This document shows, piece after piece, positions 1 to 53,719 of a stretch of 64,000 nt of DNA. Positions within the stretch are counted from its first letter, which is position 1; every line of letters starts with the position of its first letter. The stretch is from positions 41,561,803-41,625,802 of the forward strand of contig NC_057718.1 of assembly GCF_004010195.1 (NCBI RefSeq), read 5' to 3'. This DNA comes from Chiloscyllium plagiosum (lineage: Eukaryota). The notes below the pieces were generated by a model. That model saw only the letters and a program-made list of their open reading frames with translations, was not told where the DNA came from and ran no database searches. Position numbers and translations under genes: made by a program.

Positions 1-2525
1 GTAAGAAATTTCAGGGGTACGTCATTAAGTGCTTTTTTACTCCACTCCAAATTAGTTCAATCTCTTATTTTGATTCAAAAGAATCTTTGCTGTAAATCTC
101 TGCTTTTCACTAACTGAGCCCCAACTCTGTACAAGAGTGCAATTTATGCAAATTTCTTGAACTTACACCACTTCTATGTGGGCAGTAAGTCTACCATAAC
201 ATTTCATACACAGTGGGACCCAAGGTGTTATTTCTGGCGTTTCATGGTTAGTGAATGTTTTACTTTTAACCTTTTCCATTCACCCAGAGAAAAACGACCT
301 TTTTGTGTCTCTAAATGCATTTTGATGGATCAAAATGATTTGCACTAAACACTGAAGAAGCCCTGGCATGTCAATTATTTGTATGTGCTAATTTGAATGC
401 TTAAAATCATGTTCATGCAGAGAAAATAAGGAAGCTGGCATACACTAATAAGATTTTCATGAAATTCTTAATACAATGCACCAATGAGGTCAGCCTAAAT
501 TTTGTGTGAAGTCATTTTTAGGAATTTCCAGGCAGATTTATAATGCTATGCTTAACAGAGATACTAATTAATCACAACGTAGGCTGCGCCTCATGCTGTC
601 ATTATTTCGAAGTGATCGCGGAAATTCCCTTGGCGCATATTGCTATATCCTGGCCTGTTCATTTGTGCTACACAGCTATTCGGCCACCCACATTTTTCCT
701 TTAGTGCATCATCGCAGTACACATGCATGCAGGTACATGCTGTGCATTGCTACACCCTTCCATGGGGCTCAGTGTATATACACAACAGGTTCTTGGCAGG
801 ATATCTTCCCTCAAGATGGATCACCAAAGCAATTAAGAGAACTGCATTGGGAACAAGAGGTCAAAAGAACTCTAAAAGGATTGGAAATGTAACAAAAGTA
901 GCATGTAGCATGAAAGCCTCCTCAGAAGGCCTTTGTTAAGAATGAGGTCTTCAACAGCTGAATGCTTTGAGAGAGAAAGACAGCTACAAGATCCTGTCAC
1001 TCTACTGGTGGAAATACAATGGTGCCCTTTACACTTGTTTCCTGGCACTTAAGTCCAAGCTTTCATGGAGACAGGAGGACAGCAAGGGACCAGGGGTGGT
1101 TCACATTTTTGGCCATTTCCATAAGTAAAACTACAGCAGTCTTCAGTCAGAAGCATTTTTCATCCTACATTCCTGAAGAATGAGATCACAAGCTTTAATC
1201 CTAAGGAGTCTTTTTGCAGATGTCAGACACCCTTTTGGAAAGGTTCAACTAGCACTTCTGACTTGTTAAAAGTAGACATGAATGTGCATAAACGATACAC
1301 AAGGTGGATGGAATTGTCAAGCTGTCAAATCATTTAAATCCCCTGCTTTTTAACACCAAGGAAAATCCCACGGTGACTCTTTATTGGGGGCTTACTATGC
1401 TCGCACCCTTGCATGGTCTGGTCCCCATAATACAGGGGAGGGGGAGGGGAATATAGTGCTTATGAGGCCATTAGGTCCATTAAGTCCATAATTAAATGGC
1501 AATGAAAGGGTTCAATTCACTTCCACAATATGCTGAGAAGTGGAAGGCAGGAGAGAGTAAGAAAGCTATTTCACCACCAAATTCGGTGAAATGATGGGAA
1601 GGTGAGTCTCTCATTCAAGGAATGACCTGTGTGGATCAGCAATACTACAGCCTATCGACCAAGATCATATCCCATCTTGGTGCCTCCATATTTGCCATCC
1701 AATGCCCCCATTCCCACCCTTCTCAGCTTGTAAATGTTTCCCACAGTGCATAGGTCCAAAAACAAACAGGCTTTTTAAACAGCCCACCACAACATTGGCA
1801 TCCTCTGCAGCTCCCATTGCACTATTTCCAGACGGGGCTGACCAGACTCCAGTTTTCTCCTGCCCATGGAGTGAAAATGCAACCTTTTGGGTAAGATTTT
1901 TCAGAGTTGGTTTTGGTAGTTGGAAATTTTCCCGATTCTGCGCATCCAACAGGACAGCAGAAGTTTGGCCCTTACTGTCACCTTTCCCATGGCCACCCTG
2001 GGACAAGGGGGTAAGTGGGGTCAACAGGAGAAAGCCCTTTGAGGATTACTGATTGGGCAAGGGGCTTAGATGTTTTGATTTTCCCTGCTATTTTGGGTAG
2101 AATCACAAAGGAGAAAGCCCACACTCCAATTCTCCACATTTGTTGCATGTACAGATATAATTGTGAAATTGGAAGGAAAGAAAATTTCCAATGAACATTG
2201 CTGGACTCAGGTCAGTCATAGTTATCAGCTCAGAAATATTGGAAAAGGAATAAGTTATTCAGTTCCCCAACTCTATCTATTTGCCTTTCATCTGGATCCT
2301 GTAAGAAAAATCTCACAAACCAGTTTTCAATTGATCCAGCATCCATAGCCTTTAAGGATTGTTGCGACATTTCAGATTCCTATTATCTTCTGTATAAAGA
2401 AGTGCTTCATGATTTAACATCTAAATACTTCAGCTCCAACCTAAGGATTATTTCTCCTTGTTAGGGCTTCTACCACCAGATGAAATAGGTTATCTAACCA
2501 ATAATTTTCTTCAGTGTGACACTAG

Positions 2526-2674
2526 AAAAGCACAGCTGGTCAGGTGTTGTTTCAAGCATAAGCTCTTCATCAGGTTCTCTCCTGCTCTTCGGATGCTGCC
2601 TGACTGGCTGTGCTGTTCCAGCACCACTCTTTTTGACTCTGATCTCCAGCATCTGCAGTCCTCACTTTCTCCTC
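2526..2674. mobile_element. Truncated copy of the same Penelope-related repeat
   Basis: GAAAAGCACAGCTGGTCAGG...CTCTTCATCAGG...GGATGCTGCCTGAC...TTCCAGCA...CATCTGCAGTCCTCACTTTCT. Confidence 0.75.
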
Positions 2675-6795: not shown

Positions 6796-7117
6796 CTACA
6801 TGAAAAAGCACAGAGTAATGGCAAGTCAATATATCAGCAAAGACCAGCTTGTATATGTGTAAAAACTATTGATGCCAGGATACAAAGTATTAGTTTCAGT
6901 CAGTTATCTGAGATGTCCTACATATTGCATCGTCTACGACCCCTGCTCCCAGGTTTCGTAAACAATCAGTTTCAATATGAACCATTCAATTATGATATTT
7001 TTCACATTCTGAACCTGGCATTATGTAATAACAACTTGCTTCAGAGGGTAAAAAGCCTCAGGTTTCCATGTAAAGTAGGCATCATTTCTCTCTCCACCCC
7101 GCAGGCTCCCTGCCTCT

Positions 7118-7153
7118 ATTCCTGATGAAGGGCTTTTGCCTGAAACGTCGACT
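7118..7153 (+). ncRNA. Minimal hammerhead ribozyme motif in a Penelope-related repeat (7083-7205)
   Basis: ATTC-CTGATGA-A-GGGC-TTTT-GCCT-GAAA-C-GTC-GACT. Confidence 0.72.
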
Positions 7154-8500
7154 TTCCTGCTCCTTGGCTGCTGCCTGACCTGCTGTGCTTTTCCAGCACC
7201 CCTCTAAACCTATTTGTAATGCTGAGCTGTAAGATAAAATGTTACTATTACAATACTTTAACTCTACAGCACTAATACACACGACGCTATTCCCCATAAC
7301 TTTACCTCAGAATTTCTAAATGGCCCCTTATTTTGCCCTTCCGTGTAACACATAGCAAGTACTTCACAAGTAATGTATCATCACAGTTAGTCAGGATATT
7401 AATAAAACATCTGCTCTAATGGAACTGCCAAACTAATAATTCATTTTAACAGCACAGACTGCATTCTGTAAGATATCAGGCATTAACATAAGCATTAGTG
7501 AAGAAAGTATTATGTAACAAATAATATTGGTAGAAATTAAGTAAAAGGCTGTAATTTAATCTTGTAGGTTCAGCTCAGGTCCCTGAACAGTTTGAGCTGC
7601 ACTTTTGCCACTTCTGACATTACCTGGATTCTTCAGTTTAGTAACTAGCTTGTTACTTTTTCTCAACTGTGTATTATCCTGCATACATATGTTCTCTTTT
7701 CCTGTTGGGAAACGGTTTGAATTAAAATTCATGGCATTGATTTCACGGCTTCTTTCTGCCAGTCTTGTAATTTAATTCCCTTTTCTTTTGGAAAAATGGT
7801 AGTGTATCTTAAGGACTTCAACATGTGGATATGGAAAAGCCGTCCTCTGGTTTAGTTGTTAACCAAAGGTGTCCCACAATCTGATAACTACTAATTTGTA
7901 ATAATCACTGCAATACTTGAGCCACTTAAAAACTAAAATCTCCTGGTAATTTTCAAAACCTTTATGTATTAGAGCAAAATAAGTAATATAAGTAATAGCA
8001 GGTGTCTGCAAACATAATTGACGAGTAAAACTCTTTGGGTCTGAATGGTGCAAACATATTGTGCCTCCATATCTGGAGATCAAAGTCAAGCTGTTTCCAT
8101 CAGTTTCCCAGTGGTTCAGCAAATTACTGTTACAGGATAGGAAATTCCCTGATGTGATGTGTTCTGAATTCCTGTTTTCTGTTGGGAGAGTGTTGGGTAT
8201 GAGATAATTAGAATTAACATGAAGTAGATTAGGGCTCCTGCACCCAAATTATCCAGTGGCCCCTGCTGGAGATATGTGTATGAATCCTAGAATGGACAGA
8301 TTCAGACTCTCTTGTGATATTTCCATTGTATAGTAACCTCCTAATACTCAATGCCAAATGTTATACACAAATCATAAACACTTGGGCACTATATTGAAAA
8401 CAATTGGAAGTCATGGAACTGTATGCAATAGAGAGCCAATGAATTTTTGAAAAAAAAGACAAGAGGAAATTAAGGATAAATACAGTTTGTCTACTCTCCA

Positions 8501-8750
8501 ACAAAAACAGATATTGCTGGAAAAGCTCAGCAGGTCTGGCAGCATCTAAGAGAAATCAATGTTAACATTTCGGGTCGGTGACCTTTCCTCAGAACTGATG
8601 GTAGCTAAGGATGCCACCTACAATCAGTTCTGAGGAAGGGTCACTGGACTCAAAACATTAACTCTTTACAGATGCTGCCTGACCTGCTGAGCTTTTCCAG
8701 CAACTTATGTTTTTGTTTCTGTTTTACAGCATTTGCAGTTCTTTCAGTTG
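8501..8750. mobile_element. Palindromic Penelope-related non-autonomous insert with hammerhead-like cores
   Basis: Inverted arms 8501-8599 / 8623-8716; 14-bp TSD TTGTCTACTCTCCA (8487-8500 / 8751-8764); CTGAGGA...GGTC..GACC-GAAA core. Confidence 0.82.
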
Positions 8751-10559
8751 TTGTCTACTCTCCATTCTGATTGTTGAATTATTATATGAAATATGTTTGT
8801 GTAAACTCAACCCTTTTCCCCAAAAAATAAGTTAACTAACAACATAACAATTCAATATTAATATTAGGACTTAATTCCGAGTCAAGTAAAGTGAAACCTG
8901 TAACAAATACAAGCATCACATTGGTGCTGACTAAATACAAGTATCACATTGGTCCTGTGGATAATGTTAAAGAGCAAAATAATGTTAGCTTTACCACCAC
9001 AAGGTCACAATTTATTTACCAATATTAAAGACCATTTGACTTAATTTAATCTGTTCATTCTAAACAATAACTGTTCTTCTTATTTCTGGTATTGTCATGA
9101 AATTTGACAAGCTTGCATTAGAATTTCTGAATCCACACCACTGGTACATATTAGGAATGACATTGGCCCCAACACTGAGCCTTGGGACTCCTCGCGGAAT
9201 TCATAACTCTACGACCCCAATAATACCCCAATAATCAATACCTATGCAGCTGTATCCATTATCCAATTTCTGTTCCATACACTAGTTTTATTCTAATCCC
9301 CATAGCATAGATTCTAATTATGAAGAGATTCTTCAATCACCTTTTGCACATGATAGGAATTAGCACTGTTTATTTGGGTTGCTACATCCTAAAAGATGTC
9401 AAGGAATTTAATCTGGCAGAATATTGCCCAAAGAAAGCTATGTTGTCTGCTGTCAGCTCGGGTCAGTTTATAGAGACAATCCTCAATTTATCCTCGGTAA
9501 TTGTTACATTAATTTGCATAAAATTAAATTAAAATTAATGAGCTATGACCTTGTTGACTCTACATTTGAAAATGAATATGTTTCTAATCCATTGATATCT
9601 TCATCGTGCCCAATGACTCTCTCAATGATTTTCAGTGCCCCTCAGATGTTCTGGAATAAATATCAACTGGAATAAATATCAACTTTGCTTTAGGATCTAT
9701 TTGTTTAAGCCTTTCAGCTTGAACAAAACTTCCATCTTATTTATAGTGAAGTCCTGAATAGTCTTTTTCTGCAGAGGCAATCTTATTCAAGTCATCCTTT
9801 GTGAATATTTGACTCGCTTTATCTGGAATTTTCACCGCAAGTTTAACGCATAAATTTGACTTGAAAATCATTGTAGAGGGTTGCCAATTATACAGAGTTT
9901 TGGCTGCTGCACCTCCAGAAACATTTCCTGAGTAGGTGGCTGAGTGTTCGAGGAACTGTGCCAGCTTCAGTATAACAGCTGACATTGATAAAGTGCCCCA
10001 GAAACCAATGCATGTCAATGACATCATCCTATCTACTCACTAGAACAAATCTAACTCCCCGAATCAGTATATTATTCCATATATGTACTGTAAATCCATT
10101 TTGATCCTAATAATGTGCATGTACAGTAGTGTTTCACTTTTTGGAGGAAGCGGTATCACTTATATGAGACCGCAATTTTAACACCCATCACTTATAGCCA
10201 GCTTGAGAAACAATACAATCAGCAATATACCTCTCTTGGAAGTACACAAGGCACTGAGCAGGAAACACAGGAAATGTTCCTTTCTCAAGCTGTGACAGTC
10301 ACAAATCCAACTTTCTAGAAGTGGAATCATACATATCAATCCATTCTTTTCTGACCTTTCAACCTTCAACATTTGAAGTTAGAGTTGAGGGAATATATGT
10401 ACAGTTAACAGAATATACTATTAAGCTCAATGCAGCCTCTGAGTGAAGTCCTGTAACTAGATGACAGAGTCTGAACATTGTACAAGCAAACCAAAAGGAT
10501 AATAAAATGTAAGATAACATAACAAATTAACAGTGTTATTGTAGGAGTCTGCAGCCCTG

Positions 10560-10840
10560 GTGGGGAGTCCAGAGTATCGCCAGGGTAACGTGAAATCAGG
10601 AAGCTTTTCTTCAAACAATGAGTAACAGAAGTCTGGGTCTCTCTCCTCCCAAAAGCTACTAAGACTAGATGAATTTAAATTTTCATGGCTGAGACTTGTA
10701 GATTTTTGTCAGGGACATTTATGATAGAAATATGTTAAGGGATAAGGAACAAAATGAACTGAGGGTAAATGAGGTAAAGATACAGATTAGCCATGATCTC
10801 AGACAAATAGAGGAATTGAACACCATACTCTTCTTCCAAC
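10560..10840 (+). mobile_element. Degenerate CR1-like LINE 3' fragment
   Basis: GGGGAGTCCAGA...TTCTTC...GGCTGAGA...CAGATTAGCCATGATCTC similarity to other copies. Confidence 0.6.
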
Positions 10841-12272
10841 TTTCTAGTTTTAGGGAATATTATAGGGAATGTAGCATTTTGATTTAAGCCATCCTTTATA
10901 TTGATGGAGTAACATTTTGTTCTCCTGGCTGCGTGTGGTATGTTCTTCTCAATATCTGGTAGCAAGACAAACGGACAATTATCAGCAGCAGTCCTTCAAA
11001 TATAGGCTTTGAAATGCTGCCAGACAAATCTTGACATTGCCTACATTCTGGATTATTTTCCATAGTCTACAGAGTCCAGGTGACCTCAAAACAAAAACTG
11101 GCCAATAAAAACAGATGTAAGTGGCCTGGATAGCAAGTTGCTCCAACCTACATGAAATATGTTTTTGGATATAGAGGTCACCATGACAACACCTTTGGCT
11201 AACAGATGTTTTGGCTTGTTTTTACAAAATTACAGTTTAAACTAATTCATGTTCCCACTACAGAAGGACACACTTAACCCTTTCTGGACAGACTTCAATA
11301 TTTCCCCAAAATTAGTTGTTTTCGTCTAAAATGCTAGTTTATGTTTTGGAAATTAAGTAAATAGTTTGAGTGATGGACAAATCAGAAGTAAAAATGTAAT
11401 AGTTTGTTTCCAAACAGAAGTGAAAGAGCATGTGGTTTCGTGACACCATTTCTGTCCCTGAGTCAGATCTTCTCTCCAGTGTACCCCAGAAGAGGAGCTG
11501 AAATTTCAGATCTGAAATCTAGCTTCATATCCAATGGGATATATGGATCTAGTGAACTAGTCCCTCCTCTTTCTTGTACATAACTATATAATAAAATTTA
11601 CCAGGAGAATTGTTGAAACTTGAAAATCATGTGGGATTATATGGTGCACATTTCAGTTGCATGGGATTATGGCACTTTTCAGAAGAATCAGGTGTACACA
11701 TTTTGGGACAAAGTGGCACCATGAGCCTTTGAGTTCAGGAAAGACTGCCTAACAACAGCCTTTGGAATGGTCCGGCTGCAGTTTGTTAGAGACCTGTAGT
11801 TGCAGTGCACTCAGACATCCTGAAGCCTGCAAACAAGAAGCATCTCTCTGTGTCTCTCTGAGTGACAAAAGACAGAATTTAAAGACTCTGACTAGAAAAC
11901 ATTTGAATACAAAAAAACACCTGGATCCACCCCACTGGCTATTAAATGGGAGATCAACTATCACTCTACAGACAACATTACATCATCAACACAAAGAAAC
12001 ATCAAAGTAACAATTTAAAACACTCATTCTGCCATTGTGGTACGGATGTATGAACCAGAGAATTTTTGCTTTCCTGTTTATATTTTCCCACAAGTAAAAT
12101 TTGTGTCAAGCTGTCTGCCTTTGTCTCAATTATGGATGAATCTGTTATGTGTTTGGGGTTTTAATGCAGTATATTTTAAGCTGCATCTTATTAATGACTA
12201 ATCCGTTTTGTTTGCCATTTGTTAAAGACTATGTTTATTTACAACAAATAGTTATTTTCCTGTTAATGATGT

Positions 12273-12769
12273 AACTTGAAAGGGTTCAGAAAAGATTTAC
12301 AAGGTTGTTGCCAGGGTTGGAGGATTTGAGCTATAGGGAGAGGCTGAACAGGCTGGGGCTGTTTTCCGTGGAGCATCAAAGGTTGAGGGGTGACCTTATA
12401 AAAGTTTACAAAATTATGAGGGGCATGGATAGGATAAATAGACAAAGTCTTTTCCCTGGAGTGGGGGAGTCCAGAATTAGAGGGCATAGGTTTAGGGTGA
12501 GAGGGAAAAGATATAAAAGAGACGTAAGAGGCAACTTTTTCACGCAGAGGGTGGTACATGTATGGAATGAGCTGCCAGAGGAAGAGATGGAGGCTGGTAC
12601 AATTCCAACATTTAAAAGGCATTTGGATAGGTATATGAATAGGAAGGGTTTGGAGGGACATGGGCCGGGTGCTGGCAGGTGTGACTAGATTGGGTTGGGA
12701 TATTTGGTCGGCATGGACGGGTTGGACCGAAGGGTCTGTTTTCATGCTGTACATCTCTATGACTCTATG
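12273..12769 (+). mobile_element. CR1/HER1-like LINE 3' fragment
   Basis: ORF 12305-12688 (RLRGDLIKVYKIM, NFFTQRVV, WNELP); tail CTCTATGACTCTATG. Confidence 0.92.
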
Positions 12770-12830
12770 TAACACAGTGTGAATTCGTTTTGTTCTTAAT
12801 AGCTGTTAGTCATGCATTTTGATCATCTAT

Positions 12831-13176
12831 GGGTGGCATGGTGGCTCAGTAGTTAGCATTGCTGTCTCACATCACCAGGGTCCCAGGTTCAATTCCGGTC
12901 CCAGGTTCAATTCCAGCTTCGGGTGACTGTGTGGAGTTTACACATTCTCCCCATGTCTGTGTGGATTTCCTCTGGGTGCTCCGGTTTCCTCCCACAATCC
13001 AAAGATGTGCAAGGCAGGTGAATTGGCCAAGCTAAATTGCCCATAGTGTTAAGTGCATTAGTCAGAGGGAAATGAGTCAGGTTGGGTTACTCTTCGGAGT
13101 GTTGGTGTGGACTGGTTGGGCCGAAGGGCCTTTTTCACACTGTAGGGACTTTTTCATACTGTAGGGAATCTAATCT
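12831..13176 (+). mobile_element. tRNA-derived HE1-like (V-SINE) element
   Basis: Same structure as 3530-3854; box B duplicated. Confidence 0.9.
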
Positions 13177-13224
13177 TGGGGTTTAGTTGGATCATTACAC
13201 ATTTGTGACAGTTAATGGAAGAGT

Positions 13225-16200
13225 GGGGCTCAATTATTGGTGCACTCTACTCAAATAAGTTATGATGATTATATAATCTCATTATTTCAACGCAGTTTGC
13301 TATTTTCTCACACAGTGTAGAAAAACTAATGGGGTAAAAACAATGACTGCAGATGCTTGAAACCAGATTCTGGATCAGTGGTGCTGGAAGAGCACAGCAA
13401 TTCAGGCAGCATCCGACGAGCAGCAAAATCGACGTTTCGGGCAAAAGCCCTTCATCAGCAATAAAGGAATAGAGAAACTAATGTTGGTCGCTCCTGAGAT
13501 GAAGGTGTGTGCACGTACCAAGCACCTCCAGTTCATTGCTTGCTCATCCAGACCTCCACCTTGGTCAATATTTCCCAACATCTCATGGCATGCTCCACGA
13601 ACAGCAACCATCTACATCCTTCATTCATTTGGTTGGCACTGGACAGGTACCAGCCTTACCACATCAACATGGCACATCTCCAACTCAGATATGATATAGT
13701 TCACCCTTTCAATATTGTACTTTGGAATTCACTGACACCTTCTGTGGCAATGTTGCTGCCAGGCCAGTTCGAACATAGGCACAGGCACCTAGCTTGTGCA
13801 TTGTAACAGTGCATCTCAGAGCTCTTAGCTTGTTCTTTTAGCACTCACTCACTTTGAGCCTACTTTGATGCTCATAGCATCTTTGCCCTGTGTGGCTTTG
13901 CCCTTTAGCACAGATACAAAGGCAGGCAGTTTGTCATGGTTGCCAGGCATGGGTGTAGCTATGTGTCAACAGCACCATTTCACAATAATATCACAATTAC
14001 AGACATGTGCCCGCAACTTATATGGCAAACTCACTGAATTTGCTTCAAATACATTCCATGTGTCAACGTCTAAAGGAAGCAGGTTTTAATCAAGTTAAGG
14101 ATCTGGTGTCATTAGTCAGGGGGTTCTGCCATATTCAGTTCAGAGCATTGTATAATCTCAGTCCATGTGCTTGAATGTGATCAGTCACTTGGGGCATTCG
14201 AGGTCAGGAATTTTGTATCACTTTAGCCCAGGGATTGGGTCATGGTCAGACCTGCAGGATCAGTGCAGACAATCTGGGGATTAGCAGTAAGTCAGTCACT
14301 GAGTTGCACAGTGTTCAATTAGGAGTTTTATCACGCAATAGTATGACCTCGCCTTTCAAGTTGATTGGCCGTGGGACAGTCAGTCTATGGGTTCTAGTTG
14401 ACTTGAAGTCAAGTAGGCTTATCAGGTACACTACTGTGGTGGGAAAGTCAATTGTGGGAATTTCAGAACGCAAAATGGGATGTCGAGTGGACACAGACTG
14501 TAAAGGCTTATAACTCAATACGTAGAAGGGTGGGAAACTATAATGCATTGGAGGTCACAGTTTACTGTGGGAAGGGGGTTTATCAATGCTCATCACCACC
14601 TTGGCTTCATTGGGGGAACAGTATGTCATGACAGTTGGCATAACAAAACTGTAGGACTGGGACTCAGGGGATAATGTTGGTAGATGAAGGTTTAAATGAA
14701 AATATTGGGTGAGAACATTTGGAATGAAGGGGTTGACAGGAAACGCAAAGAAGAAAGGAACTTGAATGTTTCGGAAGATCATCTATATTAGCAGGCTGAG
14801 CCTGCTAGTCACTCTGCAAAGTGTGACAGGCATTAGCTTGCATCTTCATCTCAATCACAAATGCACAATGGGAATTAAAAATGGCCGCACCATGCCTGGA
14901 GTGGGCAGAGTAAACTTTCCTCCTGACTGAAAGGGCCGACTCTATGTGTAAGTGATTTGAGGACCTTCAAGGGCCAATTCCATTTATCAAGCACTTACAC
15001 AGTACAGGTTAAAGACATTACAATCATAGAATTTTGTATATGAACCACAATCAGTAACCAACTGTGTTGATGACAAATCCTGGTCACAAGCACCTTGACC
15101 ATGTCATTGTCACTGCATCATGATCACAATCATCTTCTTGAGGTTGAAGTAATTGCAGTTAACCTCAAGAGTGTCACCTGAAGGCCACAATTCACAAAGA
15201 CAATCTACAGTCTCAGAGGCTGCACACAGGCACAGACTGATATCCTCTCACCTTTAACAATATTTAACAACATACTCGTACATGGAATTTTGCCTTTTAT
15301 TGGGTGAGATGGGGCTGGGTGTTGGGGCGGGGGGTTTGGCGCATGGTTTCAGTAATCCTACCACATTTCCAATCTCCTCCTGTATTTGTGTGATATGGCT
15401 TGTGTTACAAACATTGAAACAAGGTCCACTACACCAGAAGTCCATGGACAGAAACCCTCCTTGTCAGGGTCCTCCATGTCCCACTGCAACAAGGACTATT
15501 CCAAATGTGAGTAATGCAAATGCTGACTGCTCACGTTATTAAAGACCCTTGATGTTTCTGATATCACTCACTCAGGTTCATTGCAATCATGGGTAATGGG
15601 TCCAGTCACAGCAGGGTTTATCCTCACTGAAGGCACAGAGAAACTGAGGAAGAACAAATGAACCAGTAAGCCCAAGGCCAGCAGCAAACTCTAGCAGCTA
15701 TTGAACTGTCTCTCCATGAAGAATTTGCAGCTGAAGGTCCCCACAGGATGAGGAGGAGTTACAGAAGGTCCCCTCATTAAGGCTGAGCGCAAATATAATG
15801 TTACTCAGTCTTTGACAAGGCCAAGGGCTGTGGTAGAACAGATAACAGGCTTCCTGAAAGTTAGGTTCTGATATCTGGGTCTGTATATGGGCCAGGGGGG
15901 TTGTAGTATACTCCAGACATGTAATGTGCCACATAATCTTTGCAAGCTGTGCTTTGCAGAAGTGGAGGGGATATAATGGGTGCTGTGAGAGTGTAAGCAG
16001 TCTCCAAAGGTGGAAGATGAGGATATTGAGCAGGAAGAATGGTACCTTTACTATGACAGCCCAGGTACAAGACGTCAGACAGAACTTAACAGATATCTGT
16101 ATCCAATTGAAATGAGTTGAAAGAGGTCATCAATCATTGACTGTAAATCTGTTGTTGACTGAAAGGCATGCAGCCCCTATTTATTGCCAGAAGCAAATGC

Positions 16201-16825
16201 AGCTTTTTTTTTTATTAGCTGCTCCTTTGCTTTTCCTGTTGTTTAATAAAAGTTAATGTTAACAAATGTTTGTAGCCTTTACAATACTCTGATATCCCCC
16301 AAGACAAGATGTTATGTTGAAAAGAGTAGCAATCCTTCAGACAAAGTTTTAAATTGGTATGATGCTAAGGATGGGTAACCCTTGTAACTTCAATCTTGTA
16401 GCTGCAGTTACAAGAACAGTCAAACAAATTGGTGATAATATAAAGTGGCAATACCTTCTATGAATATGCATATCTATGTCCAATGAAGTGTCACCAGTAC
16501 CAACTATGTGGCCTTGCAAGCCTTGCTTTTACACTTCCCTCCCGCTGTGTGAAGGGTTATTTGTGGCTGGCAGTATTTGACCTGGTGCACAGCTGGAGTT
16601 TGAATATGGCACTAGTGGACTAAATCCCAGAAGTTCTTGTCAATACTTCTGCTGCTGGTCAGTAGACTGATAGCGCAAGTGAGCGATTTCCGGCGTGGTG
16701 CATCCATAATGAGGTGAGCAGCAGAACATTATGTGAGATAACTTGCTAGAGCTCATGGACAGAGACCCTCTGTGAAACTTCCTGAAATTGACACTTAACA
16801 TAATTTTTGGCAAAATTTAGCCCCC
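13225..16825. mobile_element. Possible decayed TIR (Harbinger-like) element
   Basis: Ends GGGGCTCAATTATT / AAAATTTAGCCCCC resemble the TIRs at 2776/4166; internal coding remnants too decayed to assign. Confidence 0.35.
13427..13462 (-). ncRNA. Minimal hammerhead ribozyme motif in a Penelope-related repeat (13335-13460)
   Basis: CTGATGA-A-GGGC-TTTT-GCCC-GAAA-C-GTC-GATT on the minus strand, perfect stem II. Confidence 0.72.
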
Positions 16826-19800
16826 ACGTCTCTTTCTTTCAGCAAAACTTTGAAATACAAGTCTTTTCATTTGCTTGTTCTTGATTTATATTGCTGTGCA
16901 GTTATACTACACAGGGAAAAATGTGAAATTACAGTTCATCTTTCATAATTAACATTTACGTCTTATTTCAAATGCAAAATAGATAGAATTCTGTCATAAT
17001 ATTGATGCGTCTGAATGATGTGTGAATCATTTGAGGAGTGACATGTGGAAACTGAAGCATGCTTTTGAGGAATAGATAACCTTTGAGTTGTGGCTCACAA
17101 AATCTTCCATCATTACTGATTTCTCTCACCTCATGCTTGGGTCTATAGCAAACTGATTGATAGAAATGGGATGCCAAGACTTGTTAACATTCCCATTCCA
17201 TTGTATCATGTAACATCTCTCAATGATAGAATATGAACTAGGTGGATTTTGGTCTTTTTCTAATCTACCAATTGGTAAAGTCTAATCTTTTAGTTTACAG
17301 GAAACGTTGCATTCCCACATGATCATCACAGACATTACATTTGTGTTGACATTTTCAAAACAAATATTGAGCTGCTAATAACAACTTCTTATTGTTAAAT
17401 TATGTAATTCATACTTTGGATTTACATGCTGACTGTTAAATTCAATCCCTGCTTTGAAGTTTTGTGCTTTATCCTGGTTATTACTAACAGGAATAACAGC
17501 AAGTTCTAATTTTGTGTTTATTTTGTGTAACACGCAAAAATATATTTGACTTTAAAGGGTGAAAGGAGGCTTATTGCCATGGTGGTATGGTGTATTGTTA
17601 CACCAATGTGCTGTAATACATGGTCCAGCACATGGCACGATACTATGCTGGATTCCATGGCCCACATGTGAGTTCCAAACATTACTCTAGTCCTAAGATT
17701 ATAACTCAATATCAAATCCAAGAATTTAACCCTGTTTTGATCCAAAAGGTAAACTAAAGGGAATCACATATCATATCACTTATCTACCCAACACAGCATG
17801 GAGCATCAGAAGGGGTTCAGATGGGCTGCAGGTAAATGAAGGGAATAAAGCAGGATACCTGTGCAGACGTACTTAAAAATATCTAACATGCCTGATTCAT
17901 TCATGTAACACTACCCTTCAAAAATATTCAGCCACAGTTACCACAGTCTATGTTGAGAAAATGAATCAAATTAGAGCTACAGATCTTTATTGCTACTATT
18001 TCTCTTTTCAAGGATTTCCGAGTTGTTTCAATCTACGTTTAGTTTGAACAATGGAAGGTAACTTTATAGGCACACAAATGAAGACAACTGTTTCGTGCTG
18101 TCATTCTGACTGATTAGAAAATATTTTAGAAGCCATAAATAAGACTTGAGGGAGGGTTGCAGAATGTTGTGTGGTATTTATTTTGCAAAACATTCACTTG
18201 ACAATATTAGTTTCCATACACACCTTTCTCATAAAATAAAAGAAGCTTTAAATTCCACAATCCTTCATAAGGAGTGGAATTAATTTGCAATTGATGCTGC
18301 TCAAGTAAGTTAACGCTGTGCAGTGCTACGTATAAACCATTGAACCAACCTTGGTGGCAAGGAACATTTGCTTCAAATCCAGAAACTGCTCCTTTTGTAT
18401 CTGGATTAATTTGTTTCAGTGTGGTATAAACATGAGGTAATGAAATGGTTGCCTGTGTTCCATGCCACTCAAATGTCTGTTCCACATGAAAACAGACAGC
18501 TGATCCACTATCACCAGCTTCCACCCCAGTCTGCGTTTAAAATAAGTTGGAGTTGTAAACAAATTAATGTCCTAATGCTGCCTTTGAAACGGTGAAGTTA
18601 TTTCCCAAAACTGCGCTCAGGTAAGTCACCTCCTGACTGTAAACGGTACTGCTGCTTTTCAGGAAAACTCACTCCACAAGAATTCATTTTCTTGAGACCT
18701 ACAGTACATTTCCAATCACGTGGAGGAAACTATGGCCAGGAAATTCCTTGAACCTGCTTGTACTCTACCAGCATAACTTTGCCTGGAATGTGGCATAACG
18801 AGATTCATGGTATGCTTCTGGAAAAATATTTATGGCAGATCAAGACCAGCTCCAAGGGACCTGCTGGTCTATGGAAATATCATTTTAGACCATTAATCCA
18901 CGTATACTGATGGACTGTCAAAATGTTGGTGCTGATAGCATAAAAATCATCAGCACAAAACTGCTCCAAAAACATGTTGGCAGGGGGACACAAAGTTGCT
19001 CCAGTGGCAGGGACACCCAGTTTCTTGGCTTCATCCCTTTATGGACTATTTTTGCAGCAGTGAAATGGGGGCAGCACCAGGGCTACCTGTCCACATTCAG
19101 ATTATTCAGTCAGTCTTTGGGTTGATGCAGGTGTCAATGAGCCCAGTGTAACTGTTTAGAAGTGGCCTCTTGGTGTCAGATAGAGAAGTGGGGGGGGGGG
19201 GGGAAGGAAGTGGTACTCTGCAAGGACCCGTCCTGCCTGCCTCATGAAGCAGTAACTACAGGCCATTCCATCAATGAATGCTCTGCTGCCTTTCACCATG
19301 GTGACTTGGCTGCCAAAGTCACTTTCTGGTTTAAATATAAAGTTGGCAGCAACTTTCCAGCAACTCCTGAAACCAAGCACATCCCAAACACAGCGCTTTG
19401 TGTTCCATTATACTCATTTGGAGCGGTCACGAGGACAACCTAATCTTTGGGCTGCCCAAGGTCTCCGTAAGCTTTGCCCAGGCTTGTATCCTGGAGAGAA
19501 CACTTCAGTTTTGCTGCAGAATGTCACTACAACATGAAAGTTACAATCGATAAGCCCAGTCTATTGGTCAAGAGAAGGGGTATTTCAAGTAGCCTTCCTT
19601 GATGGGACAGTCCATTGTGACCCACAGGTCAGCATTGGCCAGCTCAAATCAGACTGTCTCTAATGGGTAAAGAACTGATCTGCCTCTACCTTTCTCCTTC
19701 AATACAGATTAGAGTTTTACTCAACATGTGGACATAATCTGTCACATTAAGCAAAAAAGAAGTTAAGTCTTCCATCAGCAAGCACTGCTTTGAGAGAAGA

Positions 19801-19948
19801 ATATAGCTGGTTGATAATGTGCAGTTCACATTTACTGTAGTGAGTTATAAGGAACCTGATAGGGTGAATATAGATGCACTTTGTCTTCCAGAGACCACTG
19901 ACACAATGAGCAGAACGCTGAAAGGATCCCAGGTTCAACCAGCAAGGG

Positions 19949-20500
19949 AAGAACATAGAACAAAGAATGTTACAGCACAGTACAGGCCCTTTGATGTTGC
20001 GCTGACCTGTGAAAATAATCTGACGCCCATCTAACCTACACCATTCCATTATTATACATACGTATGTCCAATGCCAATTTAAATGCCTTGGTGTCAGTGA
20101 GTCTACTACTATTGCAGGCAGGCTGTTCCACACCCTTACTACTCTCTGGGTGAAGAAACTACCTCTGATATCTGTCCTAAATTTATCACCCCTCAATTTA
20201 AAGCTATGTCTCTTGGTGTTATCCTTCAGCATCCAAGGAAAAAGGCTCTCATTGTCCACCCTATCTAACCATCTGATTATTTAATACGTCTGATTAAGTC
20301 ACCTCTCAAATTCTTCTCCAACGAAAACAACCTCAGTTTCCTCAGCCTTTTGTTGTAAGACCTTCCTACCATACCAGGCAACATCCTTGTAAATCTCCTC
20401 TGAACCCTTTCCAAAGCTTCCACATCCTTCCTACAATACGATGACCATAACTGCATGCAATAATCCAGCTGTGGCCTTATCAGTGTCTTGTACAGCTGGA
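19949..20500 (-). mobile_element. CR1-like LINE 3' fragment (different subfamily)
   Basis: LYKTLIRPQLDYCMQLWS...ERVQRRFTRM; FFTQRVVRVWNSLP; (TTCTATG)-type tail. Confidence 0.88.
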
Positions 20501-20599
20501 AGAGTTCAGAGGAAACATATAAGCAAAGTGTAGGCTTTGTTATAAGTAACTTGCCACTATTGATGACAGAACCCTCCACAAATGGTTCAGAATCTCAAC

Positions 20600-23110
20600 T
20601 CAAACAGGGCCATTAGCCTCATAAGTATTTATTCTCCAATGTATGCTCCACTACAGCAGTACTATGAGAAGCCTGGCACTGCTATCAGCAGAATCACTAA
20701 GTAAGATTATCTTTACTCACTGAGGGAATTCAGTTGTAACAGTACATGAGACAAGGCCCTCCTGCATTGGATGTTATGATCTGGGAAAGATAAATGACAA
20801 TGGACAGAGACTACTTGTGCTATGCTGCTAATAGTTTTGTGTAACTCAAAGCTTCTTTTCCACAAGGTGTCTGGAGACATTGAAGTTCAGCGCATTGGCA
20901 CCAACTGAATCTGATTGACAGATACTGTGATACAGATCCCTACCTGGTATTCACCAGGGTTAGGGTGCAAGACTTCATGATTCTCACTGAAAGCTGAAAT
21001 GCTGTCCCTACATCAACATCACTTGTACTGCCTGCTGAGATATTTAAAAAATCCTCAACTTAGCTGATTCTTGGTATCCTCAAGCCTTCACAAACAAAGT
21101 GCATGAGGGAAAAGAAAGATACTGGGAGATACCATCCACAGTAACACTCGAAATATATGGGAAACAAGAATGGGAAATTGCTGACTGTTTTGTGGTTAAA
21201 ATCATTGAGATTGCACTTGTCATTGAATTCAAGTGGTCGGTTCTCTTTATTTGTAAGAGAGATCCAAGAAAGAAGACAGTGAATGCATTAATAGCAGTTC
21301 AAATAGAAAGCATGTCAATAACTACAGTTTGTAACTTTGCCAGCATATCCAGATGTCCTTCGACACATGGAATGCTATAACTGTATGAAATGATCAAAAA
21401 GGCAATAACAAAAAAAAATGAAAACAATGCAAACAAAGCCTGGGGGGGTCATTACTGACTGCAGTAAACAGTTGGTCAGATGGTGGAACCCTGCCTTGAG
21501 TTATACCCTAGGGAGAACTCTGTCATCAAGGAAGAATTAGACTCTACAGAATGCCTGCCTATCATGGAAAAGGATAATATCAAACCCACAACAGGGCAGA
21601 TTAGCAAAGCAATTGACTTCCTCCACATGCTGATGATATACCACCGGAATTTATCAAGCTTGGTGAACTGGCAGTTAGGCAATGTCGGAAAAAACTGCTG
21701 TTTCTACCAGAGGGAGGGGCAGTGACTCGTGAGAAGCAGATGCGTAGATTGTGACCCTTGTACATGACTGGGGTCAACTGTAGTGAGTGCATCAAATATT
21801 GAGGCATCTCCTTGCTGGGCATCTTGGGACTATGCCAGACCATGCTGTTGACTGTATCCCAGTGTGGCCTCAGGACTAGGAGATCTATAATTGACATGAT
21901 TTTCTGCAGTAAGAGAAAAATCCATGAACAAAGAGGACATTGTCTTTATTGGTGACAGCAAGTCATTTAACTATGTAAGAAAGAGAAAGTGAGGGCTGCA
22001 GTTAGTGGAGATCAGAGCTGATAATGTATTGCTGGAAAAGCACAGCAGGTCAGGCAGCATCTAAGGAGTAGGAGAATCGACATTTCGGGCATAAGCCCTT
22101 CATCAGGAATGGCTGAAGGGCTTATGCCTGAAATATCGATTCTCCTGCTCCTCGGATGCTGCCTGACCTGCTGTACTTTTCCAGCACCAGACTCTCAACT
22201 ATGTAAGAAGAGATGGTTTATTTAAACAGCAGCAGAAAATTGACTTCTGGCTCACTGCATTATACTCTTTTTGTAAAGGGTAAGATCAATTAGGACATTA
22301 CAAGCCTTTAACATTCACAGTGGGAATAATCAAATACTGATGTCCTTTGACACATCCTTTTCTTTGCTGCTATCATATATCTTCAGGTCATCTACAGAAG
22401 ATGTCAGAATAGACAGAAAGCTAGTCATCCTTGCTCATTTGAGATCCAAGATAAAAGTACATTCAGACCTCACGGAGGGTTGTCTACACTCTAATGCTGT
22501 ATTAGTATTCCATGCTAAGACACACATTCAGTGGCAAATGGACAGATTTTCTCACATGTGTAAAGAGACTGATTTGACCACCTGCATGAGGAAGAACATC
22601 ATGGTGCAGGATATTGCCATACTGCCATTGATCAGCCCTGCTAATGTGACTATGGAGGATATTGCCAGCTTCTCATCTCCCGCCTCCACAGTCAGCAGCA
22701 CTGTGTCACTTGGTGCGTAAATCAACACACATATCACAAAAGCTTCAACTGAATAAGAGAGAATGGAACAATCACAACCTAACTGAGAACATCAAAACTA
22801 GGGTTTACTATCCAGCATCCTCAGAACACTCCTCTACAACAATAAGATCTGGACAATGTACACTAGGCAGGAGTAAAGACTGAAAGGTTTCCATCTTTGC
22901 CATCTCCTATGCATCCTTTGCATCTCATGGAAGGACAAGGTCACTAGCTCATTGCTCCTGAAGCAGGCAAATTCAATTAGCATACACGAATGGGAAGCCA
23001 TCAATATCTGCACAAACTCAGCCAAGTTCACTGGATAAGTGACAGCTACACATCCAAAGACCATACGTATGGTGACCTGGCCACTGTCCATGACCTCCTG
23101 GGCAGACATA
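20600..23110 (+). mobile_element. Degenerate RTE-clade LINE (endonuclease + RT remnants)
   Basis: Frame-broken motifs: GKINDNGQRLL, HKVSWRH...HWHQL, SQCGLRTRRSIIDMIF, WTMYTRQE.RLKGFHLCHLLCILCISWKDKVT. Confidence 0.78.
21982..22196. mobile_element. Palindromic Penelope-related non-autonomous insert with hammerhead core
   Basis: 73-bp inverted arms 22030-22102 / 22114-22186; 13-bp TSD AACTATGTAAGAA (21969-21981 / 22197-22209); inserted in the RTE LINE. Confidence 0.85.
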
Positions 23111-25350: not shown

Positions 25351-25795
25351 TAGTCATAGAGTCAAGAGATGTACAGCATGGAAACAGGCCCTTTGGTCCA
25401 ACTCATCCATGCCAACCAGATATCCCAACCCAATCTAGTCTCACCTGCCAGCACCCGGCCCATATCCCTCCAAACCCTTCCTATTTATATACCCATCCAA
25501 ATGCCTCTTAAATGTTGCAATTGTACCAGCCTCCACCACTTCCTCTGACAGCTCATTCCATACACGTACCACCCTCTGCGTGAAAAAGTTGCCTCTTAGG
25601 TCCCTTTTATATCTTTCCCTTCTCACCCTAAACCTATGCCCTCTAGTTCTGGACTCCCCGACCCCAGGGAAAATACTTTGTCTATTTATCCTATCCATGC
25701 CCCTCATGATTTTATAAACTCTATACGGTCACCCCTCAGCCTCCGACGCTCCAGGAAAAACAGCCCCAGCCTACTCAACCTCTCCCTATAGCTCA
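25351..25795 (-). mobile_element. CR1/HER1-like LINE 3' fragment
   Basis: ORF 25441-25707 is near-identical to the 12273 and 51576 copies. Confidence 0.92.
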
Positions 25796-26550: not shown

Positions 26551-27140
26551 ACATCTCCTGCCAGGTTTGGTGGTGATGAGGAACTTGATCCAAAGTCCTG
26601 TACTTGTTTTGTGTAATTGGGGCATTGCCTCGCCTCACCTCGCCTCTTACTTATTCAGTTTCTGCATGTTACATACAGGCAAGGGGTGACATGTTCCCAG
26701 ACCAGAGAGAAATCATAGACCCTGGTGCTTCTCCTGCTGCTCCCCCATTGCAATATGACACATGTTACAAACATGGCTTTGTCAGTCAATTGTGCACAAC
26801 TTGATTGTTCATATTATGCTACAGCTCCACCTTTTTGACATCAGTAATATCAAAAAGGTTTGAACCCCACAAGCACAACAAGGAACAATCCTCTGTACAA
26901 ATGTAAAAATGTTGAACCAGCAGTGACATATTATGTTGGCACATAACACCTGGTTTTACTTCCAAGTTTTAAAAAATGGCAAAACCTTCCAGTAAATTAG
27001 TACCATCAAATTTGTTATTTTTATCCACACAAGCGGGCTTTGTTAACAGAAATATTGCATCTTGCACTGAGAGATAAATATTTTCTCAGTTTAAGTTGAA
27101 GCAAGCCGTATTTATATCTGCCCAATGGGGAGAATATAAC

Positions 27141-27345
27141 AGAAAAACAAAATACTGTCAATGCTGGAAATTTTAAGGAAAATTACTGGAAATATTCAGC
27201 AGGCCAGACAGGATGATGAGAGAGAGAGAGAAGAGGAGAAATAGGACTTCAGGTTCATGATCTGCACTAATTCAAATGGAAGGTCAGTGAACTCAGTGTC
27301 TCTCTGCACAGATGTTGCCAGATGTGCTCAGCATTTCCAACACTT
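27141..27345. mobile_element. Degraded palindromic copy of the 8501-type repeat
   Basis: TGGAAATATTCAGCAGGCCAGACA...TCTCTCTGCACAGATGTTGCCAGATGTGCTCAGCATTTCCA. Confidence 0.55.
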
Positions 27346-27934
27346 CCCACCTCTATTAGTTTTTGCCAGCCTTGCAAAAACAATCAGTCAGGCGTCTTGT
27401 GAGTCTTGCATTCCCCTTCAGCAAAAAACCCAGCAGCTGTTGCCTGTGATTGGGCTTGGCACAACATTAAACATGAACTTCAAAAAAAAGGCCCAGGTAG
27501 GCAAAACAAAAACCACATACAACTTGCTGAGGCAAAATCATTCATTGTTAAATGAATAATTAATAAAAATGATCGTTAAAATGCAAGTCAGGATATCTAA
27601 CCAATAAAACTTCTTGGCTTTATCACTCAAGAAGCAAGGTAGAGGTATACAGACCAGCCCCAAGATGTGGTCAACAGGGGGAGGGTACTGCACAAGATAT
27701 GGAGTTGAGTTTCACTAACACGGACCCTGCACTCACCTCTAGTGCCTCAGACTTTAAACTAATCTTGATGGAATACATTTGAAGATGGGATTCAGATGTA
27801 AGTTGCCTTTCAGCCTGGGTTTCTCTCCTTTCCTTATTTGGTGTATGTGTGGATAAGTTTTTGGGAAGGGAAAAAGGGTGCATGCCCCAAACCAAGCATG
27901 TGTGTGTGCCCAAATCACAACCACTCTCCAGATT

Positions 27935-37382: not shown

Positions 37383-37411
37383 TTTCAAAGCTGGGCAGTT
37401 TGGAAAGTTGA

Positions 37412-37443
37412 AGAGAGAGAGAGAGCAAGAGAGAGAGAGAGAG
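37412..37443. repeat. (GA)n microsatellite just upstream of the TGFB2 start codon
   Basis: agagagagagagagcaagagagagagagagag. Confidence 0.9.
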
Positions 37444-44100: not shown

Positions 44101-44522
44101 TATTAAAATAAGTCAGTTTCTTTTAATAAAATGAAAAAAAAATGAATGGATTACTCAATGCTGCTGCTGATTAGTGAAGCTTCAAGCTTCACATTCAAAG
44201 CCACTGACTAAGCTAGATCCAGGCTCTCAGGTTGGGACAAAACTAAAATTCTACTTTTATTAGAAGTTGTATATCAAACCTGTAAATGCCAGAAATACTC
44301 AGGTCAGGTAGCATCTATGAAGAGAAACAAAGTCAATTTTGCAGATCAATGCGCTTTCACCAGTTTGAGCCACTGTTAACTGAAGGATAGGTATTCGATA
44401 TCTGTCTATAGTTGTTTTCCTACTATGTATCCAATTAGTGTTGGACTCTTCTTGAAATTAATAACTAACAAATAAACCACAACTGTATTCAATTTTGGAA
44501 TCGTTCCTTCAAGATTAGGTCA

Positions 44523-48450: not shown

Positions 48451-48517
48451 CCGTATTATACTGGAGAAACAGGCATTAGTTACTGCCCCGCAGAGTGAGG
48501 AATCAAATCCAGATGGT

Positions 48518-52548: not shown

Positions 52549-53484
52549 TCATAGAATTGTATAGTATGGAAACAGACTCTTCAGTCCAACTCGTCCATGC
52601 CGACCAGATATTCCAAACCGACCTAATCCCACTTACCAGCATTTGGTCCATATCCCTCTAAATCCTTCTTACTCATGTACTCACCCAGATACCTGTTAAA
52701 ATGTTGTAATTGTACCAGTCTTTACCACTTCCTCTGGCATCTCATTCCATAGGCGCACCACCCTCTGTGTGAAAAAGTTGCCCCTCAGGTTTGTTTTAAA
52801 TCTTTCTCCTCTTACCTTTAACAAAGTCATCTAGTTCTGGACTCGTCCGCTCTGGGAAAATGACATTGGCTATTTATCCCATCCATACTCATGATTTTAT
52901 AAACCTCAATAAAGTCACCCCATCAACCCCTAATGATCCAGGGAAAAATATCCCACCCTATTCAGCGACTACCTACAGCTCAAGCTCTCCAATCCTGAAG
53001 AACATCCTTGCAAATCTTTTCTGAACCCTTTCAAATTTAACATTTTTCCTATAGCTTGGAGACCCGAAGTGATTGTAGTATTCTAAAAGTGGCCTAACCA
53101 ATGTCCTGCACAGCCACAATATGCTATCCCAATTGCTCTACTCAATGCATTGACCAATGAAGGCAAGTGTACAAAATGCCTTCTTCACTACCTGGTTTAC
53201 CTGCGACTCCACTTTCAAGGAACTATCATCTGCACCCAAAAGGTCCCTTTGTTCGGCAACATGCCCCAGGGACTTACCGCTAAATGTACAAGTCCGGCCC
53301 CAATTTGCCTTACCAAAATGCAAGACCTCACATTTATCTAAATTAAACTCGGTCTGCCACGCTTTGGCTCATCTGATCAAAGTCCCATTTTACTAAGCGA
53401 TTATCTTCTTCACTGTCTCCTACACTACCAGTTTTGGTGTCATTTGAAACTTACTAACCATACCTCCTATATTCACATCCAACT
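52549..53484 (-). mobile_element. CR1/HER1-like LINE 3' fragment (older)
   Basis: HFGKANWGR...AEQRDL...KKAF RT C-terminal motifs, plus the same 3' UTR. Confidence 0.88.
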
Positions 53485-53485
53485 C

Positions 53486-53672
53486 AAGAAACTCAGCAGG
53501 TCTGCTAAAATCTGTGTAGAGAGAAACAGAATTAATGTTTCAAGTCCAAGGCAACTCTCTCTCAGCACTGAAATTCCGAAATAGTCATACTTCCTTGTTG
53601 GCCTAAAACATTAACTACTTCTCTCTTCACAGATACTGCCAGATATGCTGAGTTTCTCCAGCACTTTGTTTC
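53486..53672. mobile_element. Degraded palindromic copy of the 8501-type repeat
   Basis: ACTCAGCAGGTCTG...AGAGAGAAACAG / CTTCTCTCTTCACAGATACTGCCAGATATGCTGAGTTTC inverted arms. Confidence 0.65.
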
Positions 53673-53719
53673 AATTGCATTTCAACATGCTGTTGAAAAA
53701 TGTCTTAATGCCTGTGCAA

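What the first reader, a model, noticed from the sequence alone, without database searches (positions are those of the whole stretch)
8487..22209. Palindromic, TSD-flanked mini-elements built from hammerhead-bearing Penelope termini
Seen: two inserts (8501-8750 and 21982-22196) are head-to-head inverted repeats with ~95- and 73-bp arms, each flanked by an exact 14- or 13-bp TSD, with CTGA(T/G)GA-A-stemII-GAAA cores near the axis. Degraded palindromic copies occur at 27141 and 53486, and a partial one at 2526. Known: Penelope-like elements carry minimal hammerheads in their pseudo-LTRs and often have inverted terminal copies. Inference: these may be a non-autonomous, ribozyme-bearing hairpin retroelement class in sharks (at least two sequence families), rather than DNA-transposon MITEs.
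Basis: partly seen in the sequence, partly recalled or inferred. Interest (0 to 1): 0.75.

Follow-up and report, generated by a model that had tools for sequence, protein, structure and literature searches.

The report
Palindromic Penelope retroelement end stubs
These small hairpin-shaped inserts are pairs of chopped-off ends of a Penelope-type jumping gene laid head to head as it lands, each end starting with that family's small self-cutting RNA motif; the pattern is real and very common in this genome but is of an already described kind.

Summary
Inserts 8501-8750 and 21982-22196 are head-to-head palindromes with exact 14- and 13-bp target-site duplications (0 of 3000 random site pairs reach 12 bp). 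Each arm starts near the centre with a Penelope-type minimal hammerhead reading outward. None of the four cores is fully intact, and the hairpin blocks ribozyme folding. One arm carries a 33-38-bp extra 'tail', the published signature of Penelope-like element (PLE) insertions with an inverted pseudo-LTR. The ends are not terminal inverted repeats, so these are not DNA MITEs. They are also unlikely to be a self-copying hairpin class. All five window palindromes have different centres, a single-arm copy has the same 14-bp duplication, and public contigs (46,000-72,000 matches per run) show no dominant centre. Best reading: palindromes built at each insertion from two short PLE 3'-end cDNAs. Two leads remain. 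5' ends pile up just upstream of the hammerhead, and the two arms of 21982-22196 end like two different subfamilies, suggesting two templates (n=1). No link to a PLE protein gene was tested. The scan found this before on other pieces of the same genome (nine notes seen), with the same verdict.

The parts
8487..8500 (.). left TSD of element A (14 bp)
   Evidence: exact repeat of 8751-8764
8501..8600 (-). element A left arm, short (tail-less) 3' end at 8501; minimal hammerhead core 8592-8564, G10.1 and C15.2 mutated
8601..8622 (.). element A centre: a few more upstream bases of both arms plus a spacer of about 9 bp
   Evidence: self-alignment
8623..8717 (+). element A right arm; hammerhead core 8630-8659 with G12 changed to A, and a 10-bp deletion downstream
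8718..8750 (+). 33-bp one-sided tail of element A
   Evidence: lies outside the palindrome but inside the TSD; resembles the tails of 2507-2671 and 13332-13469
8751..8764 (.). right TSD of element A
21969..21981 (.). left TSD of element B2 (13 bp)
21982..22019 (-). 38-bp one-sided tail of element B2
22020..22113 (-). element B2 left arm; hammerhead core 22106-22079 (C15.2 changed to U); ends 7 nt upstream of C3; 3' end resembles the subfamily seen as loose ends behind 7198
   Evidence: table 7
22114..22196 (+). element B2 right arm; starts inside the hammerhead core; short 3' end resembles the subfamily seen as loose ends behind 7200
   Evidence: table 7
22197..22209 (.). right TSD of element B2
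2507..2671 (.). asymmetric family-B palindrome: left arm (-) has the hammerhead 5' core and an internal deletion; right arm (+) starts 2-3 nt past the predicted cleavage site and carries the tail; no TSD found
7085..7212 (+). single-arm family-B copy with an intact minimal hammerhead core (C3 = 7122, predicted cut 7149/7150), short 3' end; no TSD found; 5' limit approximate
13332..13469 (-). single-arm family-B variant with tail, flanked by a 14-bp TSD with 1 mismatch (13318-13331, 13470-13483)
27137..27357 (.). degraded family-A-like palindrome; outer limits approximate; no convincing TSD
44273..44369 (-). degraded single-arm family-A-like copy
53482..53674 (.). degraded family-A-like palindrome; no TSD found

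Best explanation
The inserts are minimal insertions made by a Penelope-like element (PLE) protein, and the palindrome is built during each insertion rather than copied from a palindromic master. SHOWN: TSDs of 13-14 bp; two 5'-truncated PLE-type termini joined 5' to 5'; a 33-38-bp tail on one arm only; varying centres; single-arm copies of the same termini; tens of thousands of related copies. FROM THE LITERATURE: an Anolis PLE protein nicks and extends both target strands, starts reverse transcription at two internal RNA sites that bracket the tail, and is predicted to be a dimer (PMC11167929). INFERRED: staggered nicks 13-14 bp apart each prime a cDNA on PLE 3'-end RNA, one from the distal start site (tail) and one from the proximal site (no tail). 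Both cDNAs stop after about 60-130 nt, at or near the hammerhead, and are joined at the centre, probably by short microhomology. If only one cDNA is used, a single-arm copy results. The hammerhead is a passenger from the pseudo-LTR and cannot fold in the finished palindrome, so the inserts are dead ends. Whether the template is a full-length PLE RNA or a short hammerhead-to-tail RNA is open (about even odds).
For: Architecture matches the published 'pLTR + adjacent inverted pLTR + optional 31-bp tail + TSD' (PMC3846280) and Fig. 2 of PMC8557442. 3 of 3 well-preserved palindromes have exactly one tail. The motif matches the PLE min-HHR consensus (PMC4209133 Fig. S3). Centres differ in 5 of 5 window palindromes. 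In one search, 12 of the 15 joints shown (28 in all) switch strand; they spread over 12 coordinate pairs, and the commonest holds 8 of 27, 10 of 27 and 8 of 35 contigs in three runs. B2 arms differ at 6 of 73 core positions but 5 of the next 10 (post hoc Fisher p = 0.003), and each arm matches a different loose-end consensus. Stem II probability is 0.0 in both whole palindromes, against 0.95 (A arm), 0.14 (B2 arm) and 0.88 (7122 copy) for single arms.
Against: No link to a PLE RT/GIY-YIG gene was tested: no genome is held. The joint table is a tiny, biased sample (27-35 contigs against 7,306-9,165 partly laid per run). It shows no symmetric B2-type centre although B2 is one, so a symmetric master could be under-reported. 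The two-template argument rests on one element and on loose-end consensuses of only 0.45-0.65 agreement; gene conversion could give the same picture. TSDs were found for only 3 of 8 copies searched. Exactly one tail per palindrome fits two start sites on one RNA at least as well as two RNAs. Covariation in six cores was inconclusive (34 of 500 shuffles reached the score).
Confidence: 0.62

Rival explanations
1. Same PLE origin and also built at insertion, but the mirror arm arises by self-priming (fold-back) on a single template, as Arkhipova et al. 2013 proposed for inverted pLTRs.
For: It is the published hypothesis for head-to-head pLTR junctions (PMC3846280). Arms of each palindrome belong to the same family.
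Against: Fold-back predicts identical arms at insertion, but the B2 arms end like two different subfamilies. In 2507-2671 the two arms start about 30 nt apart. The Anolis protein extends both strands in vitro.
Confidence: 0.2
2. One reading: a non-autonomous element that is transcribed and retrotransposed as a whole hairpin, in two or more families.
For: Palindromes are frequent (5 of 8 copies in the window), with similar size and long TSDs. A few joints recur in all three organisms, such as 7118/7155 and 7118/7171. Symmetric centres may be under-reported there.
Against: Both family-B centres differ, and all three family-A-like centres differ. Single-arm copies have the same TSD length. No joint dominates. 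The hairpin blocks the ribozyme fold. Recurrent joints can reflect microhomology hot spots, shared ancestry of the three organisms, or alignment stops at the reference's private mutations.
Confidence: 0.1
3. DNA-transposon MITE (foldback type).
For: Short, non-coding, palindromic, TSD-flanked, high copy number.
Against: The termini are not inverted repeats (6/25 and 5/25). TSD lengths are 13, 14 and 14 bp. Single-arm 5'-truncated and head-to-tail copies exist. The arms carry the PLE hammerhead and tail.
Confidence: 0.02

Closest known systems
EN+ Penelope-like element insertions with an inverted pLTR and a one-sided tail (Arkhipova et al. 2013, PMC3846280; Craig et al. 2021, PMC8557442)
   Same: Head-to-head inverted 5'-truncated termini, a 30-40-bp tail on one end, whole unit flanked by a TSD.
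   Different: Here the unit is reduced to two stubs of about 60-130 bp with no ORF; TSDs are 13-14 bp against 8-10 bp in the Adineta examples; copy number is far higher.
Minimal hammerheads (min-HHR) of metazoan PLE pseudo-LTRs (Cervera and De la Pena 2014, PMC4209133)
   Same: CUGANGA-H, G-C-closed stem II, GAAA-C-G-U-H with no loop 3, short helix I. The paper already notes dual min-HHRs 100-700 bp apart on opposite strands and many solo motifs from truncated PLEs.
   Different: No cartilaginous fish is among the Fig. S3 rows I read. The two motifs here are about 10-40 bp apart. Family B helix I is weak (3 of 4 pairs). Most copies are CpG-decayed.
Anolis Poseidon PLE (PAc) in vitro mechanism (Frangieh et al. 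2024, PMC11167929)
   Same: Nicking and extension of both strands, and two RT start sites that define the tail, would give exactly this insert.
   Different: In PAc the ORF starts at hammerhead stem II; no ORF link was shown here. That paper did not describe palindromic stubs in the parts I read, and found no RNA ends at the cleavage site.
Non-LTR retrozymes (Cervera and De la Pena 2020, PMC7229834; Li et al. 2026, bioRxiv 10.64898/2026.07.22.740005)
   Same: Non-coding, hammerhead-bearing, proposed to derive from PLE pLTRs; reported in the one chondrichthyan sampled.
   Different: Retrozymes are head-to-tail tandem arrays. These are head-to-head pairs or solos with TSD and tail; head-to-tail joints were rare (9, 11 and 3 contigs).

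Membership tests
PLE minimal hammerhead | Conserved core CUGANGA...GAAA...UH with stem II closed by G10.1-C11.1 and one extra base before it | tested here: met
   Core complete in the single-arm copies at 7122 and 13458; one or more core changes in all four arms of A and B2.
PLE minimal hammerhead | No loop 3; self-complementary 15.2/16.2 (dimer type) | tested here: met
   A-C-G-U after GAA in the 7122 and 13458 copies; CpG-decayed in A and B2.
PLE minimal hammerhead | Compensatory changes in helices I and II | tested here: inconclusive
   Six cores: 3 of 9 pairs change on both sides, 95.8% of stem II cells pair, but 34 of 500 shuffles reach the covariation score; structure was drawn from these same sequences.
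PLE minimal hammerhead | Self-cleavage (dimeric or protein-assisted) | not testable with these tools
   Needs an in vitro assay. No pile of RNA starts or ends in 2,477 polyA single-cell reads, a library poorly suited to this.
Rfam hammerhead families | Match to an Rfam hammerhead model | tested here: not met
   No hammerhead family among 12 hits or 3 hits at E up to 10; expected for motifs lacking helix III (inference).
EN+ PLE insertion | Inverted 5'-truncated terminus adjacent to the 5' end | tested here: met
   5 of 8 window copies.
EN+ PLE insertion | 30-40-bp tail on one end only | tested here: met
   33 bp (A), 38 bp (B2), about 38 bp (2507-2671).
EN+ PLE insertion | Target-site duplication | tested here: met
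   14, 13 and 14 bp (1 mismatch) in 3 of 8 copies searched.
EN+ PLE insertion | Termini belong to an element encoding telomerase-like RT plus GIY-YIG endonuclease | not testable with these tools
   No genome held. The two ORFs overlapping single-arm copies have no Pfam hit. An earlier scan note claims such a link (e1-7858586); not checked here.
   5 of 5 window centres differ; 12 joint types with none dominant, which is a biased sample.
Non-LTR retrozyme | Head-to-tail tandem array of hammerhead units | tested here: not met
   No such array among 6 TRF rows; all paired copies in the window are head to head.
DNA-transposon MITE | Terminal inverted repeats at the very ends and a family-fixed short TSD | tested here: not met
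   End identity 6/25 and 5/25; TSDs 13-14 bp.

The most novel reading that the evidence does not exclude
The template is a short non-coding RNA of about 130 nt running from the hammerhead's 5' edge to the tail, a SINE-like parasite of a PLE. A PLE dimer primes two such RNAs, sometimes from different subfamilies, at the two nicks. The second arm often starts at the ribozyme cut because a cleaved RNA was copied. The tens of thousands of centres would then be a genomic record of twin-template priming and of minimal-hammerhead cleavage in vivo, neither shown in the papers I read. Support: 5' ends pile up at 7118 (1,084, 1,132 and 1,194 contigs with unrelated flanks); 9 of 12 strand-switch joint types restart at 7153-7158, 3-8 nt past the predicted cut; copy 2507-2671 has such a junction; B2 has chimeric arms. 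Against: ordinary copies also break alignment at 7155 because of CpG decay and the reference's private changes.
Probability: 0.2. Interest if true: 0.6.

Novelty: new member of a known kind. Interest (0 to 1): 0.25.

Why it matters
As a class it is ordinary: known PLE termini in a known insertion layout. Its value is as material. How PLEs make inverted termini and whether minimal hammerheads cut in vivo are stated open questions (PMC3846280, PMC8557442, PMC11167929). A genome with tens of thousands of short, TSD-bounded palindromes in several subfamilies allows both to be tested by counting: arm-subfamily concordance separates fold-back from two-template priming, and junction positions relative to the cleavage site test use of cleaved RNA. 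A practical point: such inserts can be mis-annotated as MITEs or microRNA hairpins (B2 gave sub-threshold hits to two miRNA models).

Tried and rejected
Whole-genome copy collection: no genome is held. Pattern scans for more copies: 0 hits in viral contigs; 81 stretches in metagenome contigs, all judged chance because none of 81 matches had a hammerhead pattern in the 120 nt upstream and no BLAST match exceeded 35 bp. Rfam: no hammerhead hit. Sequence look-up among earlier scan notes: nothing; a word look-up for chimeric arms: nothing. Run search: no RNA holder listed. RNA starts or ends at the cleavage site: none listed (table 6), not informative in this library. TSD search failed for 5 of 8 copies. 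Literature: searches for Penelope with palindromic and non-autonomous terms, with shark or elasmobranch terms, and with pLTR terms listed no paper describing a palindromic non-autonomous PLE class in sharks, judged from listings and the nine papers opened. Repbase, Dfam and subscription journals were not searchable, so absence from print is not shown. Rejected: the idea that both arms hold working ribozymes.
Full report
Context. The window is vertebrate DNA: an exon at 36903-37493 (-) hits the TGF-beta propeptide family, and integrase and RNase H remnants lie at 47536-50916. No genome is held, so copies outside the window were seen only through one laying of public contigs and reads.

Observation. 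Element A (8501-8750) lies between exact 14-bp repeats and element B2 (21982-22196) between exact 13-bp repeats. Among 3000 random pairs of 30x30 positions the best exact repeat was 11 bp. Both fold as long hairpins, z = -14.5 and -15.2, with 0 of 200 shuffles as stable. A 19-base motif shared by the arms occurs 8 times with up to 3 mismatches, against 0.05 expected. The window holds eight copies: five palindromes (2507-2671, A, B2, about 27137-27357, 53482-53674) and three single arms (7085-7212, 13332-13469, 44273-44369). A weak ninth hit at 61328-61401 (E 0.017) was not followed up. The single arm at 13332-13469 has a 14-bp TSD with one mismatch. No TSD was found for the other five copies.

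Anatomy. Each arm reads outward from the centre as hammerhead, about 50 nt of conserved sequence, and a 3' end. The palindromes are therefore 5'-to-5' joins. In A, B2 and 2507-2671 one arm runs 33, 38 and about 38 bp further than the other, inside the TSD where one exists. This offset is why the element ends are not inverted repeats (6/25 and 5/25 identity). The same layout is published for PLEs: a pLTR, an adjacent inverted pLTR, an optional 31-bp tail and a TSD (PMC3846280; I read parts 1-4 of 5), and a 30-40-bp tail on one end (PMC8557442, passages; PMC8969392, passages).

Hammerhead. The 7122 and 13458 copies have the full core: CUGAUGA, an extra A, a 4-bp stem II, GAAAC-GUC and a short helix I. 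This fits the PLE min-HHR consensus (PMC4209133; main text parts 1-2 of 4 and supplement PDF parts 1-2 of 3). In the two named elements no core is perfect. A-left has G10.1 and C15.2 changed, A-right has G12 changed to A, B2-left has C15.2 changed to U, and B2-right lacks part of the 5' core. Across six cores, 3 of 9 pairs change on both sides, including helix I position 2.1/1.1 and the fourth pair of stem II between families. However, 34 of 500 shuffles reach the covariation score, so the test is inconclusive. Among the variant rows shown (106 more hidden), the changes inside the core fall at N7, loop II and CpG sites, as a constrained hammerhead would predict. Inside either whole palindrome stem II has probability 0.0; single arms give 0.95, 0.14 and 0.88. 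Rfam returned no hammerhead family.

Copies elsewhere. Twenty listed runs from three related organisms hold 7000-9000. I laid 4 of the 24 listed runs on the single-arm copy 7000-7300 at 80% likeness. 46,373, 52,430 and 71,595 contigs and 2,477 RNA reads matched, so family B is very abundant; these are not copy numbers. Depth falls about tenfold within 20 bp upstream of the core (RNA reads 1,078, then 335, then 108 per bin). The largest 5' loose-end class is at 7118, the 5' edge of helix I: 1,084, 1,132 and 1,194 contigs, with agreement of only 0.32-0.35, as unrelated flanks would give (24 of 672 rows shown). Of 28 joints 15 are shown and 12 of those switch strand. One end is always at 7114-7122; the other is at 7153-7158 (9 types) or 7169-7174 (3 types). 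No type dominates (8 of 27, 10 of 27, 8 of 35 contigs). Head-to-tail joints back to 7118 occur in 9, 11 and 3 contigs.

Caveats. The reference has private changes at 7116, 7152, 7154, 7168 and 7201 that stop alignments, and ordinary copies also break at 7155 (249, 283 and 380 contigs). No symmetric B2-type joint is shown. The three organisms share many insertions by descent. The table therefore argues against one dominant asymmetric master, but it cannot exclude a symmetric one or prove cleavage-defined ends.

Two templates. The 3' loose ends show two subfamily endings, one behind 7198 and one behind 7200. B2's arms differ at 6 of 73 core positions, mostly CpG-type, but at 5 of the next 10 (post hoc Fisher p = 0.003). 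By eye, the left arm matches the first ending at 21 of 23 bases and the right arm matches the second at 9 of 10; each matches the other ending at only 6 of 10. Fold-back copying or a master with perfect arms would not give this. Two separately primed cDNAs would. It is one element, and gene conversion is not excluded.

Mechanism. An Anolis PLE protein cuts and extends both target strands, starts at two internal RNA sites that bracket the tail, and is predicted to dimerise. Its hammerhead cleaves only with protein and is not needed for insertion in vitro (PMC11167929, parts 1-2 of 4). Applied here by inference: two nicks 13-14 bp apart, one cDNA from each start site, both stopping near the hammerhead, joined at the centre. 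The likeness to L1 twin priming is recalled, not from a call. Why 5' ends cluster at the hammerhead edge is unexplained; candidates are a transcript start, a splice junction, or a stop of reverse transcription.

Comparison and verdict. It works like a PLE insertion and meets three structural PLE features; the protein link is untested. It fails the MITE and tandem-retrozyme tests (PMC7229834, passages; bioRxiv 10.64898/2026.07.22.740005, parts 1-3 of 5; its supplementary tables, which I did not see, may list these shark families). PMC5753468 and PMC2997562 (passages) added nothing on point. Opposite-strand min-HHR pairs were already noted in 2014. Nine earlier notes on this genome reach the same reading; they are unchecked AI notes, and I count them as repetition, not support. 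Verdict: real, abundant, a new member of a known kind; interest 0.25, with a testable mechanistic lead at about 20%.

Noticed in passing
window 36903-37493 (-): Exon encoding a TGF-beta propeptide (Pfam PF00688, E 4e-10); it looks like TGFB2 exon 1 (name recalled).
   Followed up: partly
window 45391-50916 (+): Broken LTR-retrotransposon remnant with integrase core and RNase H hits; the integrase fragment lies upstream of the RT/RNase H fragments, an order I did not examine further.
   Followed up: partly
window 12270-12770, 19750-20590, 25365-25795, 51614-52200, 52545-52895, 54973-55263, 63791-63957: Several fragments of one LINE 3' end, 75-95% alike; CR1-like by recall; no Pfam hit for the one ORF tested.
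   Followed up: no
window 3645-3854 and 12832-13055: Two inverted copies of a SINE-like repeat; family not identified.
   Followed up: no
window 7086-7105 (+): A pyrimidine tract followed by CAG/G lies 17 nt upstream of the hammerhead core, like a splice acceptor; depth steps up near 7103. In D. virilis the PLE intron ends at helix I. The base before AG varies among copies.
   Followed up: no
table 5c (reference 7149-7151 back to 7118-7124): Three organism-C joints may be tandem duplications of the hammerhead alone (about 35 nt); strand is not stated, so this reading is uncertain.
   Followed up: no
window 61328-61401 (+): Weak profile hit (E 0.017), a possible ninth degraded copy.
   Followed up: no
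window 44852-44923, 50106-50182, 51349-51425: Three related 70-77-bp segments at 75-78%, flanking or near the LTR-element remnant; possibly LTR pieces.
   Followed up: no
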